From an uncultured delta proteobacterium (GTDB lineage: Bacteria > Myxococcota > UBA727 > VGSZ01), in contig CAVZJB010000009.1 of the NCBI GenBank assembly GCA_963775425.1, forward strand, positions 172,485-236,484: a DNA stretch of 64,000 nt. Reading direction: 5' to 3'. Under the pieces are notes generated by a model. It was not told where the DNA came from and made no database searches. It was given only the letters and a program-made list of their open reading frames with translations. This document shows, piece by piece, positions 5,337 through 44,490 of the stretch. A program made the translations under genes and the position numbers. How positions within the stretch are numbered: position 1 is the first letter of the stretch; every line of letters starts with the position of its first letter.

Positions 5337-5810
5337 ATGGCCAAGAGCATCGCCGTCGGCGACCGCGTCGCTTCCTTCGAGCTGCCCGATCAACACGGAA
5401 AGGTCGTCAAGCTCGACGACCTCCTCGGCAAGGGTCCGCTCGTGTTCTTCTTCTATCCGAAGGACGAGACCCCCGTGTGCACGCGCGAGGCGTGCAGCTT
5501 CCGCGACGCCCACGACGAGCTGCAGCAGGCCGGCGCCGCCGTCTTCGGCGTGAGCGGAGACTCCGTCGAGTCGCACGCGAGCTTCGCCGAGCACCACAAG
5601 CTCACCTACCCGCTCCTCGCCGACCCCGGGGACAAGGTGCGGGACGGCGTGTTCGGCGTGCCGCGCGGGCTGCTCGGCCTCACCGCAGGCCGCTCCACCT
5701 ACGTGCTCGACAAGGACGGCGTCGTGCGGCACGTGCACAAGGCCCAGCTCGAAGCCCAGTCCCACGTCGACGAGGCGTTGGCCGTGGTGAAGAAGCTCGC
5801 GAACGGATAA
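5337..5810 (+). CDS. bcp: Peroxiredoxin, Bcp-type thiol peroxidase
   Basis: FFFYPKDETPVCTREAC peroxidatic Cys motif, about 157 aa, ATG at 5337. Confidence 0.9.
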   Translation: MAKSIAVGDRVASFELPDQHGKVVKLDDLLGKGPLVFFFYPKDETPVCTREACSFRDAHDELQQAGAAVFGVSGDSVESHASFAEHHKLTYPLLADPGDKVRDGVFGVPRGLLGLTAGRSTYVLDKDGVVRHVHKAQLEAQSHVDEALAVVKKLANG

Positions 5811-5818
5811 GGAACCTC

Positions 5819-6805
5819 ATGACCGCCCACAACGTCGTCATCATCGGCTCGGGGCCCGCGGGGTGGACCGCGGCGCTCTACACCGCCCGCGCCAACCTCT
5901 CGCCCATCGTGTTCGAGGGCTCCGTGCCCAACCTGCCCGGCGGCCAGCTCATGATCACGAGCGACGTCGAGAATTACCCGGGCTTCCCGGAGGGCATCAA
6001 AGGCCCCGAGATGATGGACCGCTTCAAGAAGCAGGCGGAGCGCTTCGGGACCACCGTGAAGAGCGAGAACATCGCCGCCGTGGACTTCTCCAAGCGGCCG
6101 TTCACGCTCACCACCGAGGAAGGCGAGACCCTCACGGCGCACGCCGTCATCATCGCCACCGGCGCCAACGCCAAGCTCCTCGGCATCGACAAGGAGAAGG
6201 ACCTGATGTCCTCCGGCGCCGGCGTCTCCGCCTGCGCCACCTGCGACGGCGCGCTCTACAAGGGCGAGGAGCTGGCGGTGGTGGGCGGCGGCGACACGGC
6301 CATGGAGGAGGCGCTGTTCCTCACGCGCTACGCGTCCAAGGTCACCCTCGTGCACCGCCGTGAGGAGTTCCGCGCCTCCAAGGTCATGCTCGAGCGCGCG
6401 CGCAGCAACCCGAAGATCGCGTGGGAGCTCAACGCCGTCGTCGACGAGATCCTCACCGAGAAGAAGAAGATGGGCATCTTCGAGCGCGACGCGCTCGTGG
6501 CCTTGCGCCTCAAGAACACCAAGGACGGCGGCACCAAGGACATCGCCGTGGGCGGCCTCTTCGTCGCCATCGGCCACGAGCCCAACGTCTCGCTGTTCAA
6601 GGAGCACCTGAAGCTCGACGACAAGGGGTACCTCGCCGTCACGCCGGGCACCACGCGCGCCACGGCCAGGTCCGGCCAGTGGCTCGACGGGGTGTTCGCC
6701 TGCGGCGACGTGCAGGACAGCTATTACCGCCAGGCCATCACCGCCGCCGGCACAGGCTGCATGGCCGCCATCGACTGCGAGCGCTGGCTCGCCGAGCACC
6801 ACTGA
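5819..6805 (+). CDS. trxB: Thioredoxin-disulfide reductase
   Basis: VIIGSGPAGWTAALY FAD site and redox-active CATCDG. ATG at 5819, 8 nt after the bcp stop. Track ORF 5477..6805 has a spurious N-terminal extension. Confidence 0.92.
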   Translation: MTAHNVVIIGSGPAGWTAALYTARANLSPIVFEGSVPNLPGGQLMITSDVENYPGFPEGIKGPEMMDRFKKQAERFGTTVKSENIAAVDFSKRPFTLTTEEGETLTAHAVIIATGANAKLLGIDKEKDLMSSGAGVSACATCDGALYKGEELAVVGGGDTAMEEALFLTRYASKVTLVHRREEFRASKVMLERARSNPKIAWELNAVVDEILTEKKKMGIFERDALVALRLKNTKDGGTKDIAVGGLFVAIGHEPNVSLFKEHLKLDDKGYLAVTPGTTRATARSGQWLDGVFACGDVQDSYYRQAITAAGTGCMAAIDCERWLAEHH

Positions 6806-7033
6806 AAGGCTGACGAAATAAGGCTCGTGGCAGCACTCGGCGAAGCCGCCCACAAGGTGGCTCGCCGCGCGGAGTACGTGGCGAGGCACGTCGGCGCGGA
6901 CTTGAGGCGGTGAGCTTCGCGAAGGCTAGTAGACAACGTCGCCACCGCCGGAGCTCCTTTCCGCTCCGCCGTGTGGCCGTAGCACCGTCCCCTTCCGGGG
7001 GGCTCGGATCAACGGTCCATCGGGCCAGCCGTC
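6797..7033 (-). mobile_element. MITE-like intergenic repeat, copy A (short variant, inverted orientation)
   Basis: Reverse complement matches both ends of the repeats at 15762..16105 and 28561..29050 (ggaccgttgatccgagcc ... gccgagtgctgc ... gccttatttcgtcagcctttcag). The internal imperfect palindrome of the other copies is missing here. The terminal ctgaa supplies the trxB TGA stop. Confidence 0.7.
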
Positions 7034-15761: not shown

Positions 15762-16105
15762 CGAGTGGACCGTTGATCCGAGCCACCCGGAAGCGGACGG
15801 TGCTACGGCCACACGGCGGAGCGGAAAGGAGCTCCGAGCTCGGCGACGAAGACGCGCGCCGAGTTGAGCGCCGGGGCGCCGAGCTCTCCGCTCCTTTCCG
15901 CTCGCCTGAAGTCCGCGCCGACGTCGCATCGAGGCACGAACCCTGTACGTGCGCTGATAGCGGGATCACAACACCGCTCGGACCCGCCGTTTCCTCACAA
16001 CCTGCAGCGGTTCTTGCGCGCCGACGTGCCTCGCCACGTACTCCGCGCGGCGAGCCACCCTTCGCCGAGTGCTGCTGCGAGCCTTATTTTTCGTCAGCCT
16101 TCAGT
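15762..16105 (+). mobile_element. MITE-like intergenic repeat, copy B
   Basis: Shares a 5-prime block of about 120 bp (including the imperfect palindrome ggagcggaaaggagctccgagctcggcg ... cgccgagctctccgctcctttccgctc) and a 3-prime block of about 105 bp with copy C. The terminal tcag overlaps the TGA stop of the minus gene 16101..17144. Confidence 0.75.
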
Positions 16106-17144
16106 TCGCGGCGCCGGGCGTCGGCGGATCGCGCGGACCCGCGGTGCCGGCGGCGCCGTCGGGGGAGAGGCCGGCGGACACGTCGGCGCCGGCGCCGTCG
16201 AGCGGCAGGTCGTCGGTGACGCTGCCGCAGTCGTCGACGAGGACGACGTCGTCGTCGGCGGCGCTCAGGAGGAAGCTCGCGTGCAGCGCTCCCTCGCCGG
16301 GCTCCTCGTCGGCGAAGATGACCAGGAAGCCGCCGGGGTCGAGCGCCTGCGCGGGGAGCGGCCACGCGCCGAGGCCGGCGGCGTTGTCCGCGAGGCGCAT
16401 CCCGCCGAGCGAGACCGCGGCGGCGCCCGCGTTGAACAGCTCGATCCAGGGCGCGTGCTCGCCGCCCTCGTCGGTGATGCCGGCGACGTTGTCGACGAGG
16501 GCCTCGTTGACGACCACGCCGTCGGGCGTCGTCGGCACGCAGTCGCCCTCGCCTTCTCCCTCGCCTTCGCCTTCTCCTTCGCCTTCGCCCGCGCCGTCGT
16601 TGGGCGCGCCGGGCGTGGGATGTGCGAGCACGGCGAAGGCTCCGTCGACGTCGGGGATGCGCCCGAAGCTCACGTCCGCGCCGAGCGCCGGCAGCGCGAC
16701 GTCGTCGACGATCTCGCCGGCGCTCCTCAACGTGACGTGATCGCCCGAGGCCGACAGCTTGAACGCGAAGTGCGGCTCGGCGGCGCTGCCCTGGCCGGGC
16801 TCGTCGTCGCAGAACACCACGAGGAAGCCGTGGGCCGGCACCACCGCGCCGAGGCTGAAGGGCTGCGGCCCGGAGCCGCTGTCCTCGAGGCTGAACGTCC
16901 CGAGCGCGATGTCCGCGTCGGTGCCGTTGGCGAGCTCGAGCCAATCGTCGAAGTCACCCGCGGCGTCGGCGACGGTCACATCGTTCTTGGACATCAGCTC
17001 ATTGACGGAGAGCGTCGCCGCCGTTCCCCCGTCGACGGGGCCGGGTCCGCCGTCCCCGACCGCGCCCGCGTCGGGACCCGTCGACGTTCTACCGACACAA
17101 CTGACGGCAAGCGCCAGCACCGAAAATGTGATGACGGAGCGCAC
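16101..17144 (-). CDS. Secreted protein with two lamin-tail domains (LTD) joined by a (GE)n linker
   Basis: Two LTD signatures (SVNELMSKND...DWLELANG and VVNEALVDN...WIELFNAG...LGGMRL) separated by GEGEGEGEGEGEGEGD. Probable GTG start at 17144 (MRSVITFSVLALAVSC lipobox). Start is uncertain because there is no in-frame ATG. Confidence 0.6.
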   Translation of the reverse strand: MRSVITFSVLALAVSCVGRTSTGPDAGAVGDGGPGPVDGGTAATLSVNELMSKNDVTVADAAGDFDDWLELANGTDADIALGTFSLEDSGSGPQPFSLGAVVPAHGFLVVFCDDEPGQGSAAEPHFAFKLSASGDHVTLRSAGEIVDDVALPALGADVSFGRIPDVDGAFAVLAHPTPGAPNDGAGEGEGEGEGEGEGEGDCVPTTPDGVVVNEALVDNVAGITDEGGEHAPWIELFNAGAAAVSLGGMRLADNAAGLGAWPLPAQALDPGGFLVIFADEEPGEGALHASFLLSAADDDVVLVDDCGSVTDDLPLDGAGADVSAGLSPDGAAGTAGPRDPPTPGAAN

Positions 17145-17228
17145 ACCGAAGATTAGCCCGCCGAGGAGGATCCCGCTCGTCGGTTGAAATTCGGCGGGAT
17201 ACAAGCGCGCGTCCCCTCGAGGTGTTTC

Positions 17229-18044
17229 ATGGGTTGGGCCGAATCCACGCTGTTCGAAGAGCGGTTGCCGGATCGGTTCCCCAAGCTCGTGAACCTCTAC
17301 GAGAAGGCCAAGCGGGACTTCTGGAACGAGTCCACGGCCATCGACTGGGACCAGCCCCTCACGCTGTCCACCGACGAGCGGCGCGCGCTCGCGCGCATCC
17401 TGAGCATCACCTACTACGGGGAGCGCGCGGCCATGACCATCGCCGGGCAGCTCGTCGCCAGCGTGCCCGACGAGGAGGCCCGGCAGGTGCTCGCCTGCCA
17501 GGTGATCGAGGAGGCCAAGCACGTCGGGGCGTTCCAGAAGCTGCTCAAGCGCCTCGACAAGATCTCGCCGCCCTCGTTCTTTGCCAAGAAGCTGCTCGTC
17601 GACCTCATCGAGACCGACGAGCCCGCGGCCAAGATGGTCGGCATGCACATGTTCGTCGAGAACATCGCCAACCACAGCTTCCATGCGCTCCACGACGCCA
17701 TCGAGGACCCCCTCGTGCGGCAGGTGCTCGACTACGTGGCCCGCGACGAGAAGAAGCACACCGCCATCGGCGTCCTCTATCTCCCCGCGCTCCTCAAGGC
17801 GCTGCCACGCCACAAGCTCGTGTGGCTGGAGATGAAGCAGGTGAAGTGGCTCGGCCTCGGCCTCGGCATGGTGAAGGACGGCTACGAGGACGCCCGCGTC
17901 CTCCAGATCGACCTCGCCTCCGCCGGCCAACGGGCGCTGCGCCAGCACTACCGGCTGCGGGAGCAGCTCGCGACCACCCGGGGCCTCATCGACGTCCCCG
18001 GCTTCGATCGCGTGATCGACCTGATCGGGCGTTGGGCCTCATAG
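17229..18044 (+). CDS. Ferritin-like diiron-carboxylate protein
   Basis: Two ExxH motifs (VIEEAKHV, ARDEKKHT) in helical context. Alternative ATG at 17184. Confidence 0.55.
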   Translation: MGWAESTLFEERLPDRFPKLVNLYEKAKRDFWNESTAIDWDQPLTLSTDERRALARILSITYYGERAAMTIAGQLVASVPDEEARQVLACQVIEEAKHVGAFQKLLKRLDKISPPSFFAKKLLVDLIETDEPAAKMVGMHMFVENIANHSFHALHDAIEDPLVRQVLDYVARDEKKHTAIGVLYLPALLKALPRHKLVWLEMKQVKWLGLGLGMVKDGYEDARVLQIDLASAGQRALRQHYRLREQLATTRGLIDVPGFDRVIDLIGRWAS

Positions 18045-28004: not shown

Positions 28005-28472
<468 letters not shown>

Positions 28473-28560
28473 CGACCCGTTCTGTCACGCCCTGGAGAGT
28501 CCCGCCAATTCACGATGCCGTGAGACGGGCGCCGGCACGAGCGCGAGGCTGACGCATCAC

Positions 28561-29050
28561 GTGTTGATCCGAGCCACCCGGAAGGGGCCGGTGCTACGGC
28601 CACACGGCGGAGCGGAGAGGAGCTCCGAGCTCGGCGACGAAGACGCGCGCCGAGTTGAGCGCCGGGGCGCCGAGCTCTCCGCTGCTTTCCGCTCCGGCGG
28701 TGGCGACGTTGTCTAGCCTCCGCTGATTCCGAGCGCCCAAGCACTCGCAACTCACCGAGATTTGCGCGCCAAGATGCGGCTCGAGCGATCCACCTTGCAC
28801 GGTGAAGGGCTGACGACGAACGACGACGCCTGCCGTTTTATCGTCGGCGATCTGCGCCCGAGTCACGACGTCATCGCCAGGTTCCGCGTCGATCACGGCG
28901 CCGCGTTCGACAAGCTCCTCACCCGCCGTTTCCTCACAACCTGCAGCGGTTCTTGCGCGCCGACGTGCCTCGCCACGTACTCCGCGCGGCGAGCCACCGT
29001 GTGGCGGCTTCGCCGAGTGCTGCTACGAGCCTTGTTTTTCGTCAGCCTTC
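28561..29050 (+). mobile_element. MITE-like intergenic repeat, copy C (longest; contains a transposase-fragment insertion)
   Basis: Same 5-prime and 3-prime blocks as copy B, plus an extra internal segment of about 245 bp. The terminal tcag supplies the TGA stop of the minus gene 29049..30260. Confidence 0.75.
28831..28935 (+). pseudogene. Remnant of an IS5/IS1182-type transposase N-terminus (DUF772 / InsH_N-like)
   Basis: Translation CRFIVGDLRPSHDVIARFRVDHGAAFDKLL matches the conserved LRPDHxTIxRFR motif. Only about 35 codons remain. Confidence 0.5.
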
Positions 29051-30260
29051 AGCCCTGCGGCGGGATCTCGGCGCCCCCGCCGCTCCCGTCGCCGGCCGGG
29101 GGGTCGGCGCCGGTGGCGGGGGTGCAGGCGCCGGGGTCGCCGGCGACGAGCCCGCCCGCGAAGCCGATGTCGATGACGCCGGCGGCGGCGAGGTCGCGCG
29201 CGACGACGGCGCCGGCGACGCGCAGGTCGCCCGCCGACGCGAGCGTGCCGTGGGGGAGGTAGAGGGCGCCGGAGACGACCTCGTCGCCCGCGAGCGCGAC
29301 GCCGCGGCTGCCGTCGACGTAGAGCCGCACGGCGTCCGGCGTCGCGCCGTCGCCGAGGTGGAGCACGCCGGCGGCGGCGAGGTCTCCGCCGATGAAGAGG
29401 TCGAGCGTGGCGCCGTCGTCGAGGTCGACGTCGACGTCGCCTGCGGAGGCCACGTCGCCGGCGACGAAGAGCTCCACGGCGCCGCTCGCGTGGATCTCGA
29501 TGACGCCCGCGTGCGCGATGTCCTCGACGAAGTAGCGGCCGGCCGGCAGGTCGAGCGCCACCGCGCCCGCGCTCTCGAAGCCGGCGGGGTCGATGCCGGC
29601 GGCCGCGTCGTCGTTTTCGCTGCGCGCCTGCGCGATGAAGCCCTGCACGTCGACGTGCGTGGACGCGTCGCCGCCGCAGTCGCACGGGGGCGGGACGTCG
29701 ACGTCGCCGCGCACGACGCCGCCGGCCTGGATGCCGAGGACCCGCGCGCCCTCGGGCACGGTGAGCGTCCCGTCGATGCCGACGACGCCCGCGCCCACGG
29801 CGTCGCCGCCGATGCGCGCGTCGCCGCCGACGTCGACGACGCCGGCCTGGGCGAAGCCGGCGCCGACGTCGAGGTCCCCCTCGATGTCGTCGTCGCCGGC
29901 GCCGCTCATCCGCGCGCCGACGACGAGATCGCCCTCGATGACGGAGACCCCGGCGCGGCTCCAGTCGCCGTTGGCGGCTGCCGACGCCGGCGTCTGCGCG
30001 TCGAGGCCGTGCACGCTCAGGTCGCCGGCGAAGGCGGCGTCGCCGCACAGGCACAGGCCGAAGCCGAACGCGTCGGCGGCGAGGCCGTCGCTGCACACGG
30101 GAGCGCCGTTCGAGAGCGCGCCGACGAAGCGGTTGCCGTTCGGGGCCGCGGTGGCGCGGCCGGGGGCGCCACCGCCGGGGGGGCGCGCGCCGGGGGCGAG
30201 GTCGGCGCCGGCACAGCCGGCGAGCGGGGCGAGGACGAGGGCGACGAGGAGCAAGCGCAT
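29049..30260 (-). CDS. Lipoprotein with Gly/Asp/Ala-rich beta-helix-like repeats
   Basis: ATG at 30260 (MRLLLVALVLAPLAGC). Repeated GDL/GDV-x-V-x-G units. Cys cluster near the N-terminus. Track ORF 29049..30359 starts at a GTG further upstream. Confidence 0.6.
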   Translation of the reverse strand: MRLLLVALVLAPLAGCAGADLAPGARPPGGGAPGRATAAPNGNRFVGALSNGAPVCSDGLAADAFGFGLCLCGDAAFAGDLSVHGLDAQTPASAAANGDWSRAGVSVIEGDLVVGARMSGAGDDDIEGDLDVGAGFAQAGVVDVGGDARIGGDAVGAGVVGIDGTLTVPEGARVLGIQAGGVVRGDVDVPPPCDCGGDASTHVDVQGFIAQARSENDDAAAGIDPAGFESAGAVALDLPAGRYFVEDIAHAGVIEIHASGAVELFVAGDVASAGDVDVDLDDGATLDLFIGGDLAAAGVLHLGDGATPDAVRLYVDGSRGVALAGDEVVSGALYLPHGTLASAGDLRVAGAVVARDLAAAGVIDIGFAGGLVAGDPGACTPATGADPPAGDGSGGGAEIPPQG

Positions 30261-30448
30261 GGAGCCTCCGTGCGCCTGGCGTCGCAAGGGCGGTGCCACG
30301 TGCCCGGCGGCGCGCGGACGCCACGGGTGGAGCCGCGATTGTCCTGTATTGGTGGACACTTGTGACCAGGATGGGACAGATGGGTCGGAAGGCGGGTGGG
30401 GCCGATGACGGGCGGCACGCGGCGCCGCGGATCGAGGAAGATGTGGCG

Positions 30449-42210: not shown

Positions 42211-42453
42211 GTTTCTTGGCGCGCTGCGCGCGCCGCGCGCTTCGCGCGGGGCCCTCCGGGCCCCCCACGCGCTTCGCGCGCGGGCCCCCCCCTTCTTCAG
42301 CTTGCGCATCGATGGGCCCGCTCGCGGAGCTCGCGCTTCCGCGAGACATGCAGCGCGCTCCTCAAAGACGCGGGACCAAGCTCGCGGCGGAGCCGCCCTC
42401 GCAGCGGACTGCGGCGGCCGGCTCCGCCGCGCTCCTTTTCGACGGCTTGACCT
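42211..42453. repeat. Inverted repeat, left arm (about 240 bp), upstream of lgt
   Basis: About 88% identical to the reverse complement of 44259..44490. Examples: cgggaccaagctcgcggcggagccgccctcgcagcggactgcggcggccggctccgccgcgctcc versus cgggacgaagctcgcggcggagccggcctcgcagcggactgcggcggccggctccgccgcgctcc. Confidence 0.8.
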
Positions 42454-42516
42454 CGTCACCCCCCCGAACGGCTCCGCCGCTACGACTGGGACGTGCCCTC
42501 GGCGTCCTCATCGGGC

Positions 42517-42658
42517 CGCGCGCCTCCTTGGCGCGCCTCCTTGGCGCGCCTCCTTGGCGCGCCTCCTTGGCGCGCCTCCTTGGCGCGCCTCCTCGGCGCG
42601 CCTCCTCGGCGCGCCTCCTTGGCGCGCCTCCTTGGTGCGCCTCCTCGGCGCGCCTCCA
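42517..42658. repeat. 13 bp tandem repeat, about 11 copies (ggcgcgcctcctt)
   Basis: Near-perfect head-to-tail copies directly downstream of the stop (42661) of the minus-strand FG-GAP gene. Confidence 0.85.
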
Positions 42659-42660
42659 CG

Positions 42661-44025
42661 TCAGCGACGCGGCGCTCTGCCTCGGTGCGGCGATCGCGCC
42701 GTGGTGATGATGGCCACGGCGGTCTTGCCCTGGTGCGGCTCGCCGACCAGGACGACGCCGGGGAGCGCCGGCATCGCCACCACATGCACAAACGCAGGGA
42801 CCTCCCACGTCGCCGTCGCATCCAGGGCGAAGCCGGCCGCAGTGCCCTTGTGGAGCGCCGCTCTCCCAGGCTCGCCCAGGTCCAGCAGGTCCGGCACGCC
42901 GTCGCCGTCGAAGTCGACGCTCACCACCGGCAGCGCGCCGTCCATGTGCCCGCCGCGCACGTCGGCCTTCGCCTGCATCGCCAGCGGTTCGCCCCCCTGG
43001 AGCCCCACCTTCACCGGGATCCGCCCGGTGACGACGACGGCCGACAGCGAGACCAGCGACGTGTCCACCTCCGCCACCACCAGCGCGCGGCCGCGTTCAC
43101 CGATGGGCGCCACGAGCCCGTCCCGCCGCCACAGCAAGCGCGGCGACGAAAACGGCCGCGCCGACGTCGACGACACCAGCCACGCCTCCGAGCGCTCGGG
43201 CACCGCGCCGCGCGTCACGCCGATCACGGCGTCGGCGCGGCCGTCCGCGTCGGCGTCGACGATGCGCACACGCAGGTCGGCGTCGCCCGCGCCGACGGTG
43301 CGCCCGAGGTCGCCGGACAGCCACGGACTCGCCTCGAGATCGCCGGCGGTGCGGCGCCACACGACCACCTCCCCCTCGTGCACGGCGATCAGGTCCGTGT
43401 CGCCGTCGGCGTCCACGTCGGCGTCGATGAGGCGCGGCCCATACAGCGACAGCGCCTCCGCGTAGCCCCGATCGGGCCGCAGCCCGCGATGCGCCCGTCC
43501 CGAGTACGCGCGCGCCTCGTGGCGCATGTGCACCAAGCGCGGCGCCTTCGCCGCCTCCCCGCCGCGCGGCGGACGCGGCACGACAAGGAGGCCGTCCACC
43601 ACAGGCAAGCGGAGCTCGCCGTCGCCGTCGCCGCGCTGGCCGCAAAGGTCCGCCACCAGCAGCGCGTCCGCGTCCGGCACCGTGAACAGCGCGTGCCCCT
43701 CGACGAGCACCTTGCCGTCGACGTCCTCGAGGCCCCGCGGTCCCGCGAACACGACGCGGCCGTCAGGGCACGCGTCCACGAAGATCGCGTCGGCCGGGAC
43801 CCGGCTGTCCGCGGCCGCCCGCCGGCCCTCCGCGTCGACGCGGACCAGGCGACGACCCCGCGCGTCCGCGCTCGTGAGCACGATGGTCCGCGGCTTCGCG
43901 AAGAAGGCATCGGAGACCGCGCCGTCGATCGCCACCACCGGCGCAGCAGCGGCGACCACGGCAGCGACGACGGCAATGACGGCGGACAGCACGCCGTCCT
44001 CTATCGCCCCGGCGCGCCCATGCAT
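42661..44025 (-). CDS. Secreted FG-GAP/VCBS-repeat protein
   Basis: ATG at 44025 (MHGRAGAIEDGVLSAVIAVVAAVVAAAAP signal-like). Repeated DxDGDGxxDL motifs (DADVDADGDTDLIAV, DADADGRADAVIGV, DFDGDGVPDLLDLG). Track ORF 42661..44346 is over-extended into non-coding repeats. Confidence 0.65.
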   Translation of the reverse strand: MHGRAGAIEDGVLSAVIAVVAAVVAAAAPVVAIDGAVSDAFFAKPRTIVLTSADARGRRLVRVDAEGRRAAADSRVPADAIFVDACPDGRVVFAGPRGLEDVDGKVLVEGHALFTVPDADALLVADLCGQRGDGDGELRLPVVDGLLVVPRPPRGGEAAKAPRLVHMRHEARAYSGRAHRGLRPDRGYAEALSLYGPRLIDADVDADGDTDLIAVHEGEVVVWRRTAGDLEASPWLSGDLGRTVGAGDADLRVRIVDADADGRADAVIGVTRGAVPERSEAWLVSSTSARPFSSPRLLWRRDGLVAPIGERGRALVVAEVDTSLVSLSAVVVTGRIPVKVGLQGGEPLAMQAKADVRGGHMDGALPVVSVDFDGDGVPDLLDLGEPGRAALHKGTAAGFALDATATWEVPAFVHVVAMPALPGVVLVGEPHQGKTAVAIITTARSPHRGRAPRR

Positions 44026-44040
44026 ACCCACGGACCAAGG

Positions 44041-44230
44041 CAAGAAAGCAGAAGGGGGAAGGGGAGAAGGCAGAAGGCAAGAAGGCAAGAAAGGCAAGAA
44101 GGCAAGAAGGCAAGAAGGCAAGAAGGCAAGAAGGCAAGAAGGCAAGAAGGCAAGAAGGCAAGAAGGCAAGAAGGCAAGAAGGCAAGAAGGCAAGAAGGCA
44201 AGAAGGCAAGAAGGCAAGAAGGCAAGAAGG
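44041..44230. repeat. 8 bp tandem repeat, about 19 perfect copies (ggcaagaa) plus about 4 degenerate copies
   Basis: Perfect octamer array at 44081-44230, starting 16 nt upstream of the FG-GAP start codon. Reads ttcttgcc on the coding strand. Confidence 0.9.
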
Positions 44231-44258
44231 TGGAGGAGCGCTGACGACGAGGCGGGGC

Positions 44259-44490
44259 GGTCAAGCCCCCCAACAGGAGCGCGGCGGAGCCGGCCGCCGC
44301 AGTCCGCTGCGAGGCCGGCTCCGCCGCGAGCTTCGTCCCGCGTCATTGAGGAGGGCGCTGCGCCTCTCGCGAAAGCGCGAGCTCCGCGAGCGGGCCGTTC
44401 GAAGGCACACCCTCAAGCGGGGGGGACCCGCGCGGAGCGCGGGGGGGCCCGGAGGGCCCGGCTGTTCGCGCGCGAAGCGCGCAAAAAAGC
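44259..44490. repeat. Inverted repeat, right arm (about 230 bp)
   Basis: Reverse complement aligns with 42211..42453 along the whole length. Confidence 0.8.

What the first reader, a model, noticed from the sequence alone, without database searches (positions are those of the whole stretch)
28561..29050. Copy C of the repeat carries a roughly 245 bp insert encoding an IS5/IS1182-type transposase N-terminal fragment
Relative to copy B, copy C has extra sequence whose translation contains DLRPSHDVIARFRVDHGAAFDKLL, the DUF772/InsH_N signature. This suggests the repeat family is a deletion derivative of an IS5-family element, or was once targeted by one.
Basis: partly seen in the sequence, partly recalled or inferred. 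Interest (0 to 1): 0.5.

Follow-up and report, generated by a model that had tools for sequence, protein, structure and literature searches.

The report
Decayed IS1182 insertion-sequence remnants
The three-copy repeat in this GC-rich genome is the wreckage of an IS1182-family jumping gene: copy C still holds a 38-40 codon scrap of the transposase gene, and all copies have lost the catalytic part, which is an ordinary kind of genomic fossil.

Summary
Copy C (28545-29052) has 226 bp (28695-28920) that copy B lacks, and 28804-28923 encodes ...ACRFIVGDLRPSHDVIARFRVDHGAAFDKLL. It is not a simple insert, because B carries a different 78 bp at the same place.

Direct profile matches are weak: DUF772 E=0.045, IS1182 model E=0.009. 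Indirect evidence is strong. Seven full-length transposases of 416-446 aa hit the window only here (E down to 4e-8). Three that were scanned pass NCBIfam's IS1182 cut-off. Four ORFs 88-97% identical to the fragment pass Pfam's DUF772 threshold.

A matrix built only from IS ends in other organisms ranks the three right ends of the repeat first, second and third among about 128,000 window positions. Related ORFs join the same fragment to the repeat's right end through other deletion junctions.

A, B and C are therefore independently deleted remnants of one IS1182-family element. None has a DDE domain. Left inverted repeats are decayed. No close full-length parent was found (best 58% identity), and the source genome could not be scanned.

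The family appears to insert at CTSAG and duplicate TSA. That explains why all three copies abut the TGA stop codon of a neighbouring gene. The finding is ordinary and of low interest.

The parts
28545..29052 (+). Copy C. This is the most complete remnant, about 508 bp: decayed left end, 5' leader with palindrome, transposase scrap, part of the 3' untranslated region, and an intact right inverted repeat.
   Evidence: Alignments; PWM; tblastn.
28546..28554 (+). Remnant of the left inverted-repeat core, AGGCTGACG. It is a 9/9 reverse-complement match to copy C's own right end (29040-29048). The expected flanking C-TCA is not preserved; the sequence reads CGCG.
   Evidence: pair I13. The family PWM does not support it (score -14.7), so it is supported only within this lineage.
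28563..28694 (+). Left segment shared with B (97% identical) and in part with A. Inferred to be the 5' leader of the IS.
   Evidence: (D20). Its origin from the IS is inferred, not shown.
28605..28699 (+). Long imperfect palindrome with 32-nt arms. It is present in B and C. In A it is absent, at a junction flanked by GCTCCG direct repeats.
   Evidence: I1. Fold energy -75.6 kcal/mol, z = -5.1. Function unknown.
28695..28920 (+). B has an unrelated 78 bp here.
28804..28923 (+). Transposase gene scrap of 38-40 codons: (EG)LTTNDDACRFIVGDLRPSHDVIARFRVDHGAAFDKLLT. It corresponds to the second half of the DUF772 domain (Pfam profile positions 38-72 of 74), aligning to residues between 90 and 152 of the 416-446 aa transposases.
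28921..29030 (+). Distal part of the IS 3' untranslated region, shared with B (78/78 identical) and A.
   Evidence: P0006 translates through this segment.
29031..29048 (-). Right terminal inverted repeat, read inward as AGGCTGACGAAAAACAAG.
   Evidence: PWM rank 3 of 127,956 window positions.
29049..29051 (-). TCA (TGA on the minus strand). It is inferred to be the right copy of the 3-bp target duplication, and it serves as the stop codon of the DUF7305 gene at 29049-30359.
15766..16104 (+). Copy B, 339 bp. It contains the left segment with the palindrome, then the last codon and stop codon of the transposase gene (GCC TGA; stop at 15908-15910), then a complete 3' untranslated region of about 190 nt and the right inverted repeat (16083-16100). 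The TCA at 16101-16103 is the stop codon of the lamin-tail-domain gene 16101-17948. The left inverted repeat is lost.
   Evidence: PWM rank 1. P0001 matches 15903-15941.
6802..7031 (-). Copy A, about 230 bp. It contains the left segment without the palindrome, the last 7 or so transposase codons (about 6929-6905), a deletion between GCGCCGACGT direct repeats, and the right inverted repeat (6806-6823). The TGA at 6803-6805 is the stop codon of the thioredoxin-reductase-like gene 5477-6805. A weak left-end remnant, GGCTGGCC, lies at 7030-7023.
   Evidence: PWM rank 2. P0006 and P0001 matches.

Best explanation
Copies A, B and C are non-functional, internally deleted remnants of one IS1182-family insertion sequence. 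That element once had several copies in this genome lineage.

The parent is inferred to be about 1.5-1.7 kb long, with this layout:
- a left inverted repeat
- a 5' leader of about 140-230 nt
- one transposase gene of about 420 codons (DUF772 N-terminal domain plus a DDE catalytic domain)
- a 3' untranslated region of about 190 nt
- a right inverted repeat

Each copy then lost most or all of the transposase gene through its own internal deletions, several of them between short direct repeats. The ends survived, probably because deletions running outward would damage the neighbouring genes.

Copy C kept 38-40 codons of the DUF772 region. B kept only the last codon and the stop codon. A kept about 7 terminal codons. 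So the 'insert' in C is retained ancestral sequence.

Family members appear to integrate at 5'-CTSAG-3' and duplicate the central TSA. In a genome of 72% G+C, a TGA stop codon is one of the few harmless places where that motif occurs. This explains why each copy's right end sits exactly on the stop codon of a convergent gene.

What is shown:
- homology of the fragment
- identity of the right end with the family's inverted repeat
- absence of a DDE domain in the window
- different deletion junctions in each copy

What is inferred:
- the left segment is the IS leader
- the target and duplication rule
- deletion happened in place rather than before transposition
For: Fragment homology:
- tblastn with seven full-length relatives hits only 28804-28923.
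- P0001, P0002, P0003 and P0006 are 88-97% identical to the fragment and pass the DUF772 gathering score.
- Three full-length relatives that were scanned pass the IS1182 curated cut-off.

Right end:
- A 22-nt PWM was built from 78 ends of family members in other organisms, allowing one gap. Its three best scores over the whole window fall exactly on the three repeat boundaries: 22.9 at 16104, 18.0 at 6802 and 14.3 at 29052.

Physical linkage of fragment and repeat end:
- P0006 reads N-terminal fragment, then a different junction, then RFLRADVPRHVLRAASHLVGGFAECCYEPCFSSAFQ. That last stretch is the translation of the repeat's right end.
- P0001's tail matches the internal segments of A and B.
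- P0003 ends in the transposase C-terminus AFNLLQNLAKRTA*. Its back-translation matches the DNA implied by P0001 read one frame over, which is also the sequence seen in A and B (sequence reasoning).

Different deletion junctions in A, B and C.

No other transposase remnant in the window.

Target rule: among ends flanked by TCA or TGA on both sides, 37 non-redundant pairs are direct duplications and 1 is not. An active 1.59-kb relative has at least 9 copies in one MAG.

Size and layout are typical of the family: ISPse1 is 1,653 bp with 16-bp inverted repeats (PMC3281130).
Against: - The fragment on its own fails both curated profile thresholds.
- No close full-length parent was found in the species-representative genomes (best 55%), the metagenomes (best 58%; exact DNA motif gave 0 hits) or the protein database.
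- The left ends do not match the family PWM. No left copy of the TSA duplication survives, so the IS origin of the left segment rests on a 9-nt match in C, on position, and on constant linkage to the right end.
- An unanchored HMM scan for the ends was not significant.
- Nothing recognisable as the start of the transposase gene was found at 28700-28803.
Confidence: 0.88

Rival explanations
1. The copies are MITE-like non-autonomous elements. One short deletion derivative was mobilised in trans by a full-length IS elsewhere in the genome and spread as a short element.
For: - The copies are small (230-508 bp) and 95-100% identical in their shared segments.
- The right inverted repeat is intact in all three.
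- All three lie between genes.
- Further short derivatives exist in related contigs.
Against: - A, B and C, and also P0001, P0002, P0003 and P0006, each have different internal junctions. No junction is shared, so no single short progenitor explains them.
- The left inverted repeats are decayed or missing, and no direct duplication survives.
- No full-length helper was found.
Confidence: 0.08
2. The left segment with its palindrome is an unrelated intergenic repeat (REP-like). An IS1182 element inserted next to it or into it, and only the right two-thirds of each copy derives from the IS.
For: - The left ends fail the family end PWM.
- The left part holds a strong palindrome.
- Some IS1182-family members are reported to target palindromes; IS1272 targets inverted-repeat structures and makes no duplications (PMC5678879).
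Against: - In the window, the left segment occurs only three times, always linked to the right end in the same orientation.
- Copy C has a 9/9 inverted match to its own right end just outside the left segment, and A has a weaker match at the same spacing.
- The leader length (about 140 nt without the palindrome) fits the leader of about 140 nt in the active relative.
- The family studied here shows a simple CTSAG/TSA insertion signature, not palindrome replacement.
Confidence: 0.04

Closest known systems
IS1182 family insertion sequences (ISfinder family; NCBIfam NF033551). Examples are ISPse1, 1,653 bp with 16-bp inverted repeats and a 4-bp duplication (PMC3281130), and IS1272 (PMC5678879).
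   Same: The transposase scrap aligns to model positions 79-123 of NF033551. It is 41-55% identical to full-length proteins, three of which were scanned and pass that model's cut-off. Relatives are 1.5-2.0 kb with one transposase ORF and short terminal inverted repeats.
   Different: The window copies are not elements any more. They have no DDE domain, only 38-40 of about 420 codons, and decayed left ends. The subgroup found here shows a 3-bp TSA duplication in CTSAG (inferred), unlike the 4 bp of ISPse1 or the absence of duplication in IS1272. I could not check ISfinder to see whether this subgroup is already named.
IS5 family
   Same: They share the DUF772 N-terminal domain and the DDE_Tnp_1 catalytic domain. 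From my own knowledge, not tested here, several IS5 subgroups insert at short T-N-A-type targets with 2-4 bp duplications.
   Different: Full-length relatives score only 26-33 bits on the IS5 models, against cut-offs of 140-275. They score 278-283 bits on the IS1182 model. So the parent belongs to IS1182, not to IS5 in the strict sense.
MITEs and other internally deleted IS derivatives
   Same: Short, non-coding, IS-derived repeats lying between genes that keep the IS termini.
   Different: There is no uniform internal structure, the left inverted repeats are not intact, and there are no flanking duplications. The copies look like separately decayed insertions rather than an amplified short element.

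Membership tests
IS1182 family (as an intact element) | Transposase scoring above the curated IS1182 model cut-off (NF033551, 270 bits) | tested here: not met
   The window ORF scores 15 bits, E 0.0086, covering model positions 79-123 only. Relatives L015, L001 and L007 score 278-283 bits. The window sequence is therefore a remnant derived from the family, not a member element.
IS1182 family (as an intact element) | DDE catalytic domain (DDE_Tnp_1 / DDE_Tnp_1_6) | tested here: not met
   tblastn with seven full-length transposases finds no match to residues beyond 152 anywhere in the 64-kb window.
IS1182 family (derivation from it) | N-terminal DUF772 domain homologous to that of family transposases | tested here: met
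   - 34-40 aa at 41-55% identity to seven full-length relatives, E down to 4e-8.
- 88-97% identity to P0001, P0002, P0003 and P0006, which pass the DUF772 gathering score (24.9-30.2 bits against 23.1).
- The fragment alone is below threshold (13-14 bits).
IS1182 family (derivation from it) | Terminal inverted repeats matching the subgroup consensus C|TSA|AGAGCTGTC..AAAT | tested here: inconclusive
   - Right ends: met. They are the top three PWM scores of 127,956 window positions.
- Left ends: not matched by the PWM. C has only a 9/9 match to its own right end, A has a weak match, and B has none.
IS1182 family (derivation from it) | Flanking target-site duplication | tested here: inconclusive
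   The family shows TSA duplications in 37 of 38 informative pairs. In the window, the right-hand TCA is present in all three copies, but the left-hand copy is not preserved in any of them.
MITE (amplified non-autonomous derivative) | Many copies with the same internal structure, both inverted repeats intact, flanked by duplications | tested here: not met
   The three copies have three different sets of junctions, decayed left ends and no direct duplication. Only the window could be examined, not the whole genome.
IS5 family in the strict sense | Transposase above the curated IS5 model cut-offs | tested here: not met
   Full-length relatives score 19-33 bits on the IS5 models, against cut-offs of 140-275.

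The most novel reading that the evidence does not exclude
The remnants may persist because they have been taken over by the host. Each sits exactly at the stop codon of a convergent gene. B and C also lie directly upstream of the next gene; copy C's left end is about 70 bp from the start codon of a cyclic-nucleotide-binding protein gene. The conserved ends and the 95-nt palindrome could therefore act as 3'-end or promoter-proximal regulatory modules. Alternatively, the remnants may still be mobilisable in trans. A related possibility is that this is an undescribed IS1182 subgroup with a strict CTSAG target and a 3-bp TSA duplication, for which TGA stop codons act as safe landing sites in high-G+C genomes.
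Probability: 0.1. Interest if true: 0.35.

Novelty: new member of a known kind. Interest (0 to 1): 0.15.

Why it matters
- It explains a three-copy intergenic repeat as transposon debris, so the repeat should not be annotated as a gene. ORF 28762-29262 is spurious.
- It shows that an IS1182-type element was once active in this lineage and has apparently died out in the window.
- It illustrates how target preference plus selection can place IS ends exactly on stop codons in a high-G+C genome.
- None of this challenges current understanding.

Tried and rejected
- **DNA of the close relatives.** Exact look-ups for P0001, P0002, P0003 and P0006, and for a window protein, found nothing on record. 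Cluster look-up gave no names or accessions. I therefore could not see the neighbouring DNA or identify the organism.
- **Close full-length parent.** None was found in the genome set, in the metagenomes by exact right-end motif (0 hits) or by protein, or in the protein database.
- **Unanchored nhmmer scan with an end HMM.** It recovered only copy A's end, at E=11, which is not significant. I replaced it with the gapped PWM ranking.
- **Rfam.** Nothing was found (best hit E 0.51).
- **Promoter and terminator scan of copy C.** Nothing was found.
- **Stop-codon targeting as a general property of the family.** Rejected. In-frame long ORFs occur in 6/23 cases, against 7/23 and 3/23 in control frames. 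Within the window, about half of the harmless CTSAG sites lie on stop codons, so 3 of 3 is unremarkable (crude gene calls).
- **Start of the transposase gene at 28700-28803.** A sensitive tblastn gave only noise.
- **'HNLQRFLRA' in the right part as the transposase C-terminus.** Rejected. The real C-terminus is AFNLLQNLAKRTA* (P0003), and its stop codon maps to B 15908-15910.
- **28802 as the true left end of copy C.** Not adopted, because its flanking TGA is not a direct duplicate of the right-hand TCA.

Full report
**What is in the sequence**

The window is 71.6% G+C. A repeat occurs three times and nowhere else in the window:
- A, about 6802-7031, on the minus strand
- B, 15766-16104
- C, 28545-29052

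All three share a left segment that begins GTTGATCCGAGCCACCCGGAAG. All three also share a right segment that ends ...GCCGACGTGCCTCGCCACGTACTCCGCGCGGCGAGCCACC...CTTCGCCGAGTGCTGCTACGAGCCTTaTTTTTCGTCAGCCTTCAG.

The pairwise alignment of B and C gives:
- B 15772-15903 = C 28563-28694 (128/132 identical)
- B 15982-16059 = C 28921-28998 (78/78)
- B 16060-16104 = C 29008-29052 (43/45)

Between these blocks C has 226 bp (28695-28920), where B has an unrelated 78 bp (15904-15981).

Copy A lacks the 95-nt palindrome that B and C carry (28605-28699; fold energy -75.6 kcal/mol, z = -5.1). It also lacks most of the interior.

**Is the transposase match real?**

On its own the fragment is weak:
- Pfam DUF772: E 0.045-0.079, 13-14 bits against a gathering score of 23.1
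- NCBIfam IS1182 model NF033551: E 0.0086, positions 79-123 of 488

The case becomes strong through homologues.
- Database searches found four short ORFs (P0001, P0002, P0003, P0006) that are 88-97% identical to the fragment. All four pass the DUF772 threshold. P0002 carries the whole N-terminal region.
- Scans of genomes and metagenomes returned 103 loci that encode relatives 45-58% identical to P0002.
- Full-length ORFs in these loci are 416-446 aa. Three that were scanned pass the curated IS1182 cut-off (278-283 bits against 270), and carry DUF772, DDE_Tnp_1 and DDE_Tnp_1_6.
- Used as tblastn queries, seven such proteins hit the 64-kb window at one place only, 28804-28923. The hits span 34-40 aa at 41-55% identity, with E from 4e-8 to 2e-3, and align to residues between 90 and 152 of the queries.

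There is no trace of a DDE domain anywhere in the window.

**Are the repeat's ends IS ends?**

One MAG holds at least nine 99.7%-identical copies of a 1.59-kb relative, which fixes that element's boundaries. Across the family the ends read C|TSA|AGAGCTGTC[CG]..AAAT.

I built a 22-nt position weight matrix from 78 such ends, all from other organisms. I then scored every position of the window on both strands, allowing one gap. The three best of 127,956 positions are exactly the three right boundaries of the repeat:
- 16104, score 22.9
- 6802, score 18.0
- 29052, score 14.3

An unanchored HMM scan had not been significant. B and C carry a 1-nt deletion relative to the consensus.

The left ends do not match the matrix.
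- Copy C keeps only a 9/9 inverted match (AGGCTGACG, 28546-28554) to its own right end.
- Copy A has a weaker match at the same spacing.
- Copy B has none.

**Linkage of fragment and ends in independent copies**

- P0006 reads: N-terminal fragment, then a short stretch of further transposase sequence, then RFLRADVPRHVLRAASHLVGGFAECCYEPCFSSAFQ. The last stretch is the translation of the repeat's right end.
- P0001 runs from the fragment into ...REAHRLKSAPTSHRGT, which matches A (6921-6865) and B (15903-15941).
- P0003 ends in AFNLLQNLAKRTA*, the expected transposase C-terminus. Its back-translation gives the same DNA as P0001 read one frame over. This places the transposase stop codon at B 15908-15910, and shows that A retains about seven terminal codons. 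This step is inference.
- P0002's tail, LLTPAKLTA, matches A's LLAFAKLTA.

Every copy therefore has its own deletion junctions within a common parent order: left end, leader (with or without the palindrome), transposase gene, a 3' untranslated region of about 190 nt, right inverted repeat. Several junctions lie at short direct repeats: GCTCCG around the palindrome in A, and GCGCCGACGT in A's 3' region.

**Target site**

In family members, when the left end reads CTCA|AG..., the reverse complement of the right end reads CTGA|AG..., and the reverse also holds. The counts are 26 + 11 = 37 non-redundant pairs of this kind, against one TCA/TCA pair. That is the signature of a direct 3-bp duplication of TSA within a CTSAG target. 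It would not be expected if those bases belonged to the inverted repeat.

In the window, each right end is followed by TCA-G, and that TCA is the stop codon (TGA) of a real convergent gene:
- a thioredoxin-reductase-type oxidoreductase (5477-6805)
- a lamin-tail-domain protein (16101-17948)
- a DUF7305 protein (29049-30359)

This is not a family-wide habit. It is also not surprising locally. With a crude gene call, the 41 remaining CTSAG sites split into 32 inside genes, 6 intergenic and 3 on stop codons.

The left-hand copy of the duplication is not preserved in any window copy.

**Explanation and rivals**

The best reading, with confidence about 0.88, is that A, B and C are separately decayed insertions of one IS1182-family element. 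On this reading copy C's 'insert' is retained ancestral sequence.

A MITE-like origin is unlikely. No deletion junction is shared between copies, and the left ends are degraded.

The idea that the left segment is an unrelated palindromic repeat targeted by the IS cannot be fully excluded, because the left ends fail the family matrix. Against it stand the constant linkage of left and right segments, the 9-nt inverted match in C, and the leader length, which fits that of the active relative.

**Limits**

- No close full-length parent was found (best 58% identity).
- The DNA around P0001, P0002, P0003 and P0006 could not be retrieved.
- The source genome could not be scanned.
- ISfinder was not available.

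**Comparison with known elements**

Size, single ORF and short inverted repeats agree with described IS1182 members such as ISPse1, which is 1,653 bp with 16-bp inverted repeats and a 4-bp duplication (PMC3281130). IS1272 differs from this subgroup: it targets inverted-repeat structures and makes no duplication (PMC5678879).

**Verdict**

This is an ordinary, correctly spotted IS fossil. Novelty is limited to an apparently unnamed, extinct lineage and an inferred CTSAG/TSA target rule.

Noticed in passing
window 42309-44402: Two 144-nt inverted repeats (42309-42452 and 44259-44402, 90% identical) bracket a 1.8-kb segment that holds an FG-GAP-repeat ORF (42661-44346, minus strand). Just inside the arms lie two tandem arrays: the 13-nt unit GCGCGCCTCCTTG x10.8 (42518-42657) and the 8-nt unit AAGGCAAG x24.5 (44037-44230). 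This unusual architecture is unexplained.
   Followed up: partly
window 28802-28823 (+), inside copy C: GTGAAGGGCTGACGACGAACGA is the fifth-best match in the whole window to the IS-end matrix (score 10.8). It lies exactly at the junction upstream of the transposase scrap. It may be the left end of a second, nested copy fused by deletion. It may also be a coincidence, because the coding sequence for 'RLTTND' contains GGCTGACGA. Its flanking TGA is not a direct duplicate of the right-hand TCA.
   Followed up: partly
L012-L020 (MAG CAWIGY...; e.g. L015 3784-5379): An apparently active IS1182-family element of 1,591-1,597 bp is present in at least nine copies at 99.7-99.9% identity in one uncultured 'delta proteobacterium' MAG, including two copies about 2.1 kb apart in L012.
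   Followed up: partly
family loci L001-L103: This IS1182 subgroup shows a consistent C|TSA|AGAGCTGTC terminal signature. That implies a CTSAG target and a 3-bp TSA duplication (37 of 38 informative pairs). I could not check whether ISfinder already records this.
   Followed up: yes
window 28472-28545: Copy C's left end lies only about 70 bp upstream of the ATG (28472, minus strand) of a cyclic-nucleotide-binding-domain gene (28005-28472; Pfam cNMP_binding, E 1.3e-23). That gene's promoter region therefore abuts or overlaps the IS remnant. No sigma-70-like promoter was predicted.
   Followed up: partly
window 28762-29262 (+): The 166-aa ORF that contains the transposase scrap starts at a TTG, runs out of the element, and continues antisense through the 3' end of the DUF7305 gene. 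It is a spurious ORF and should not be annotated as a gene.
   Followed up: yes
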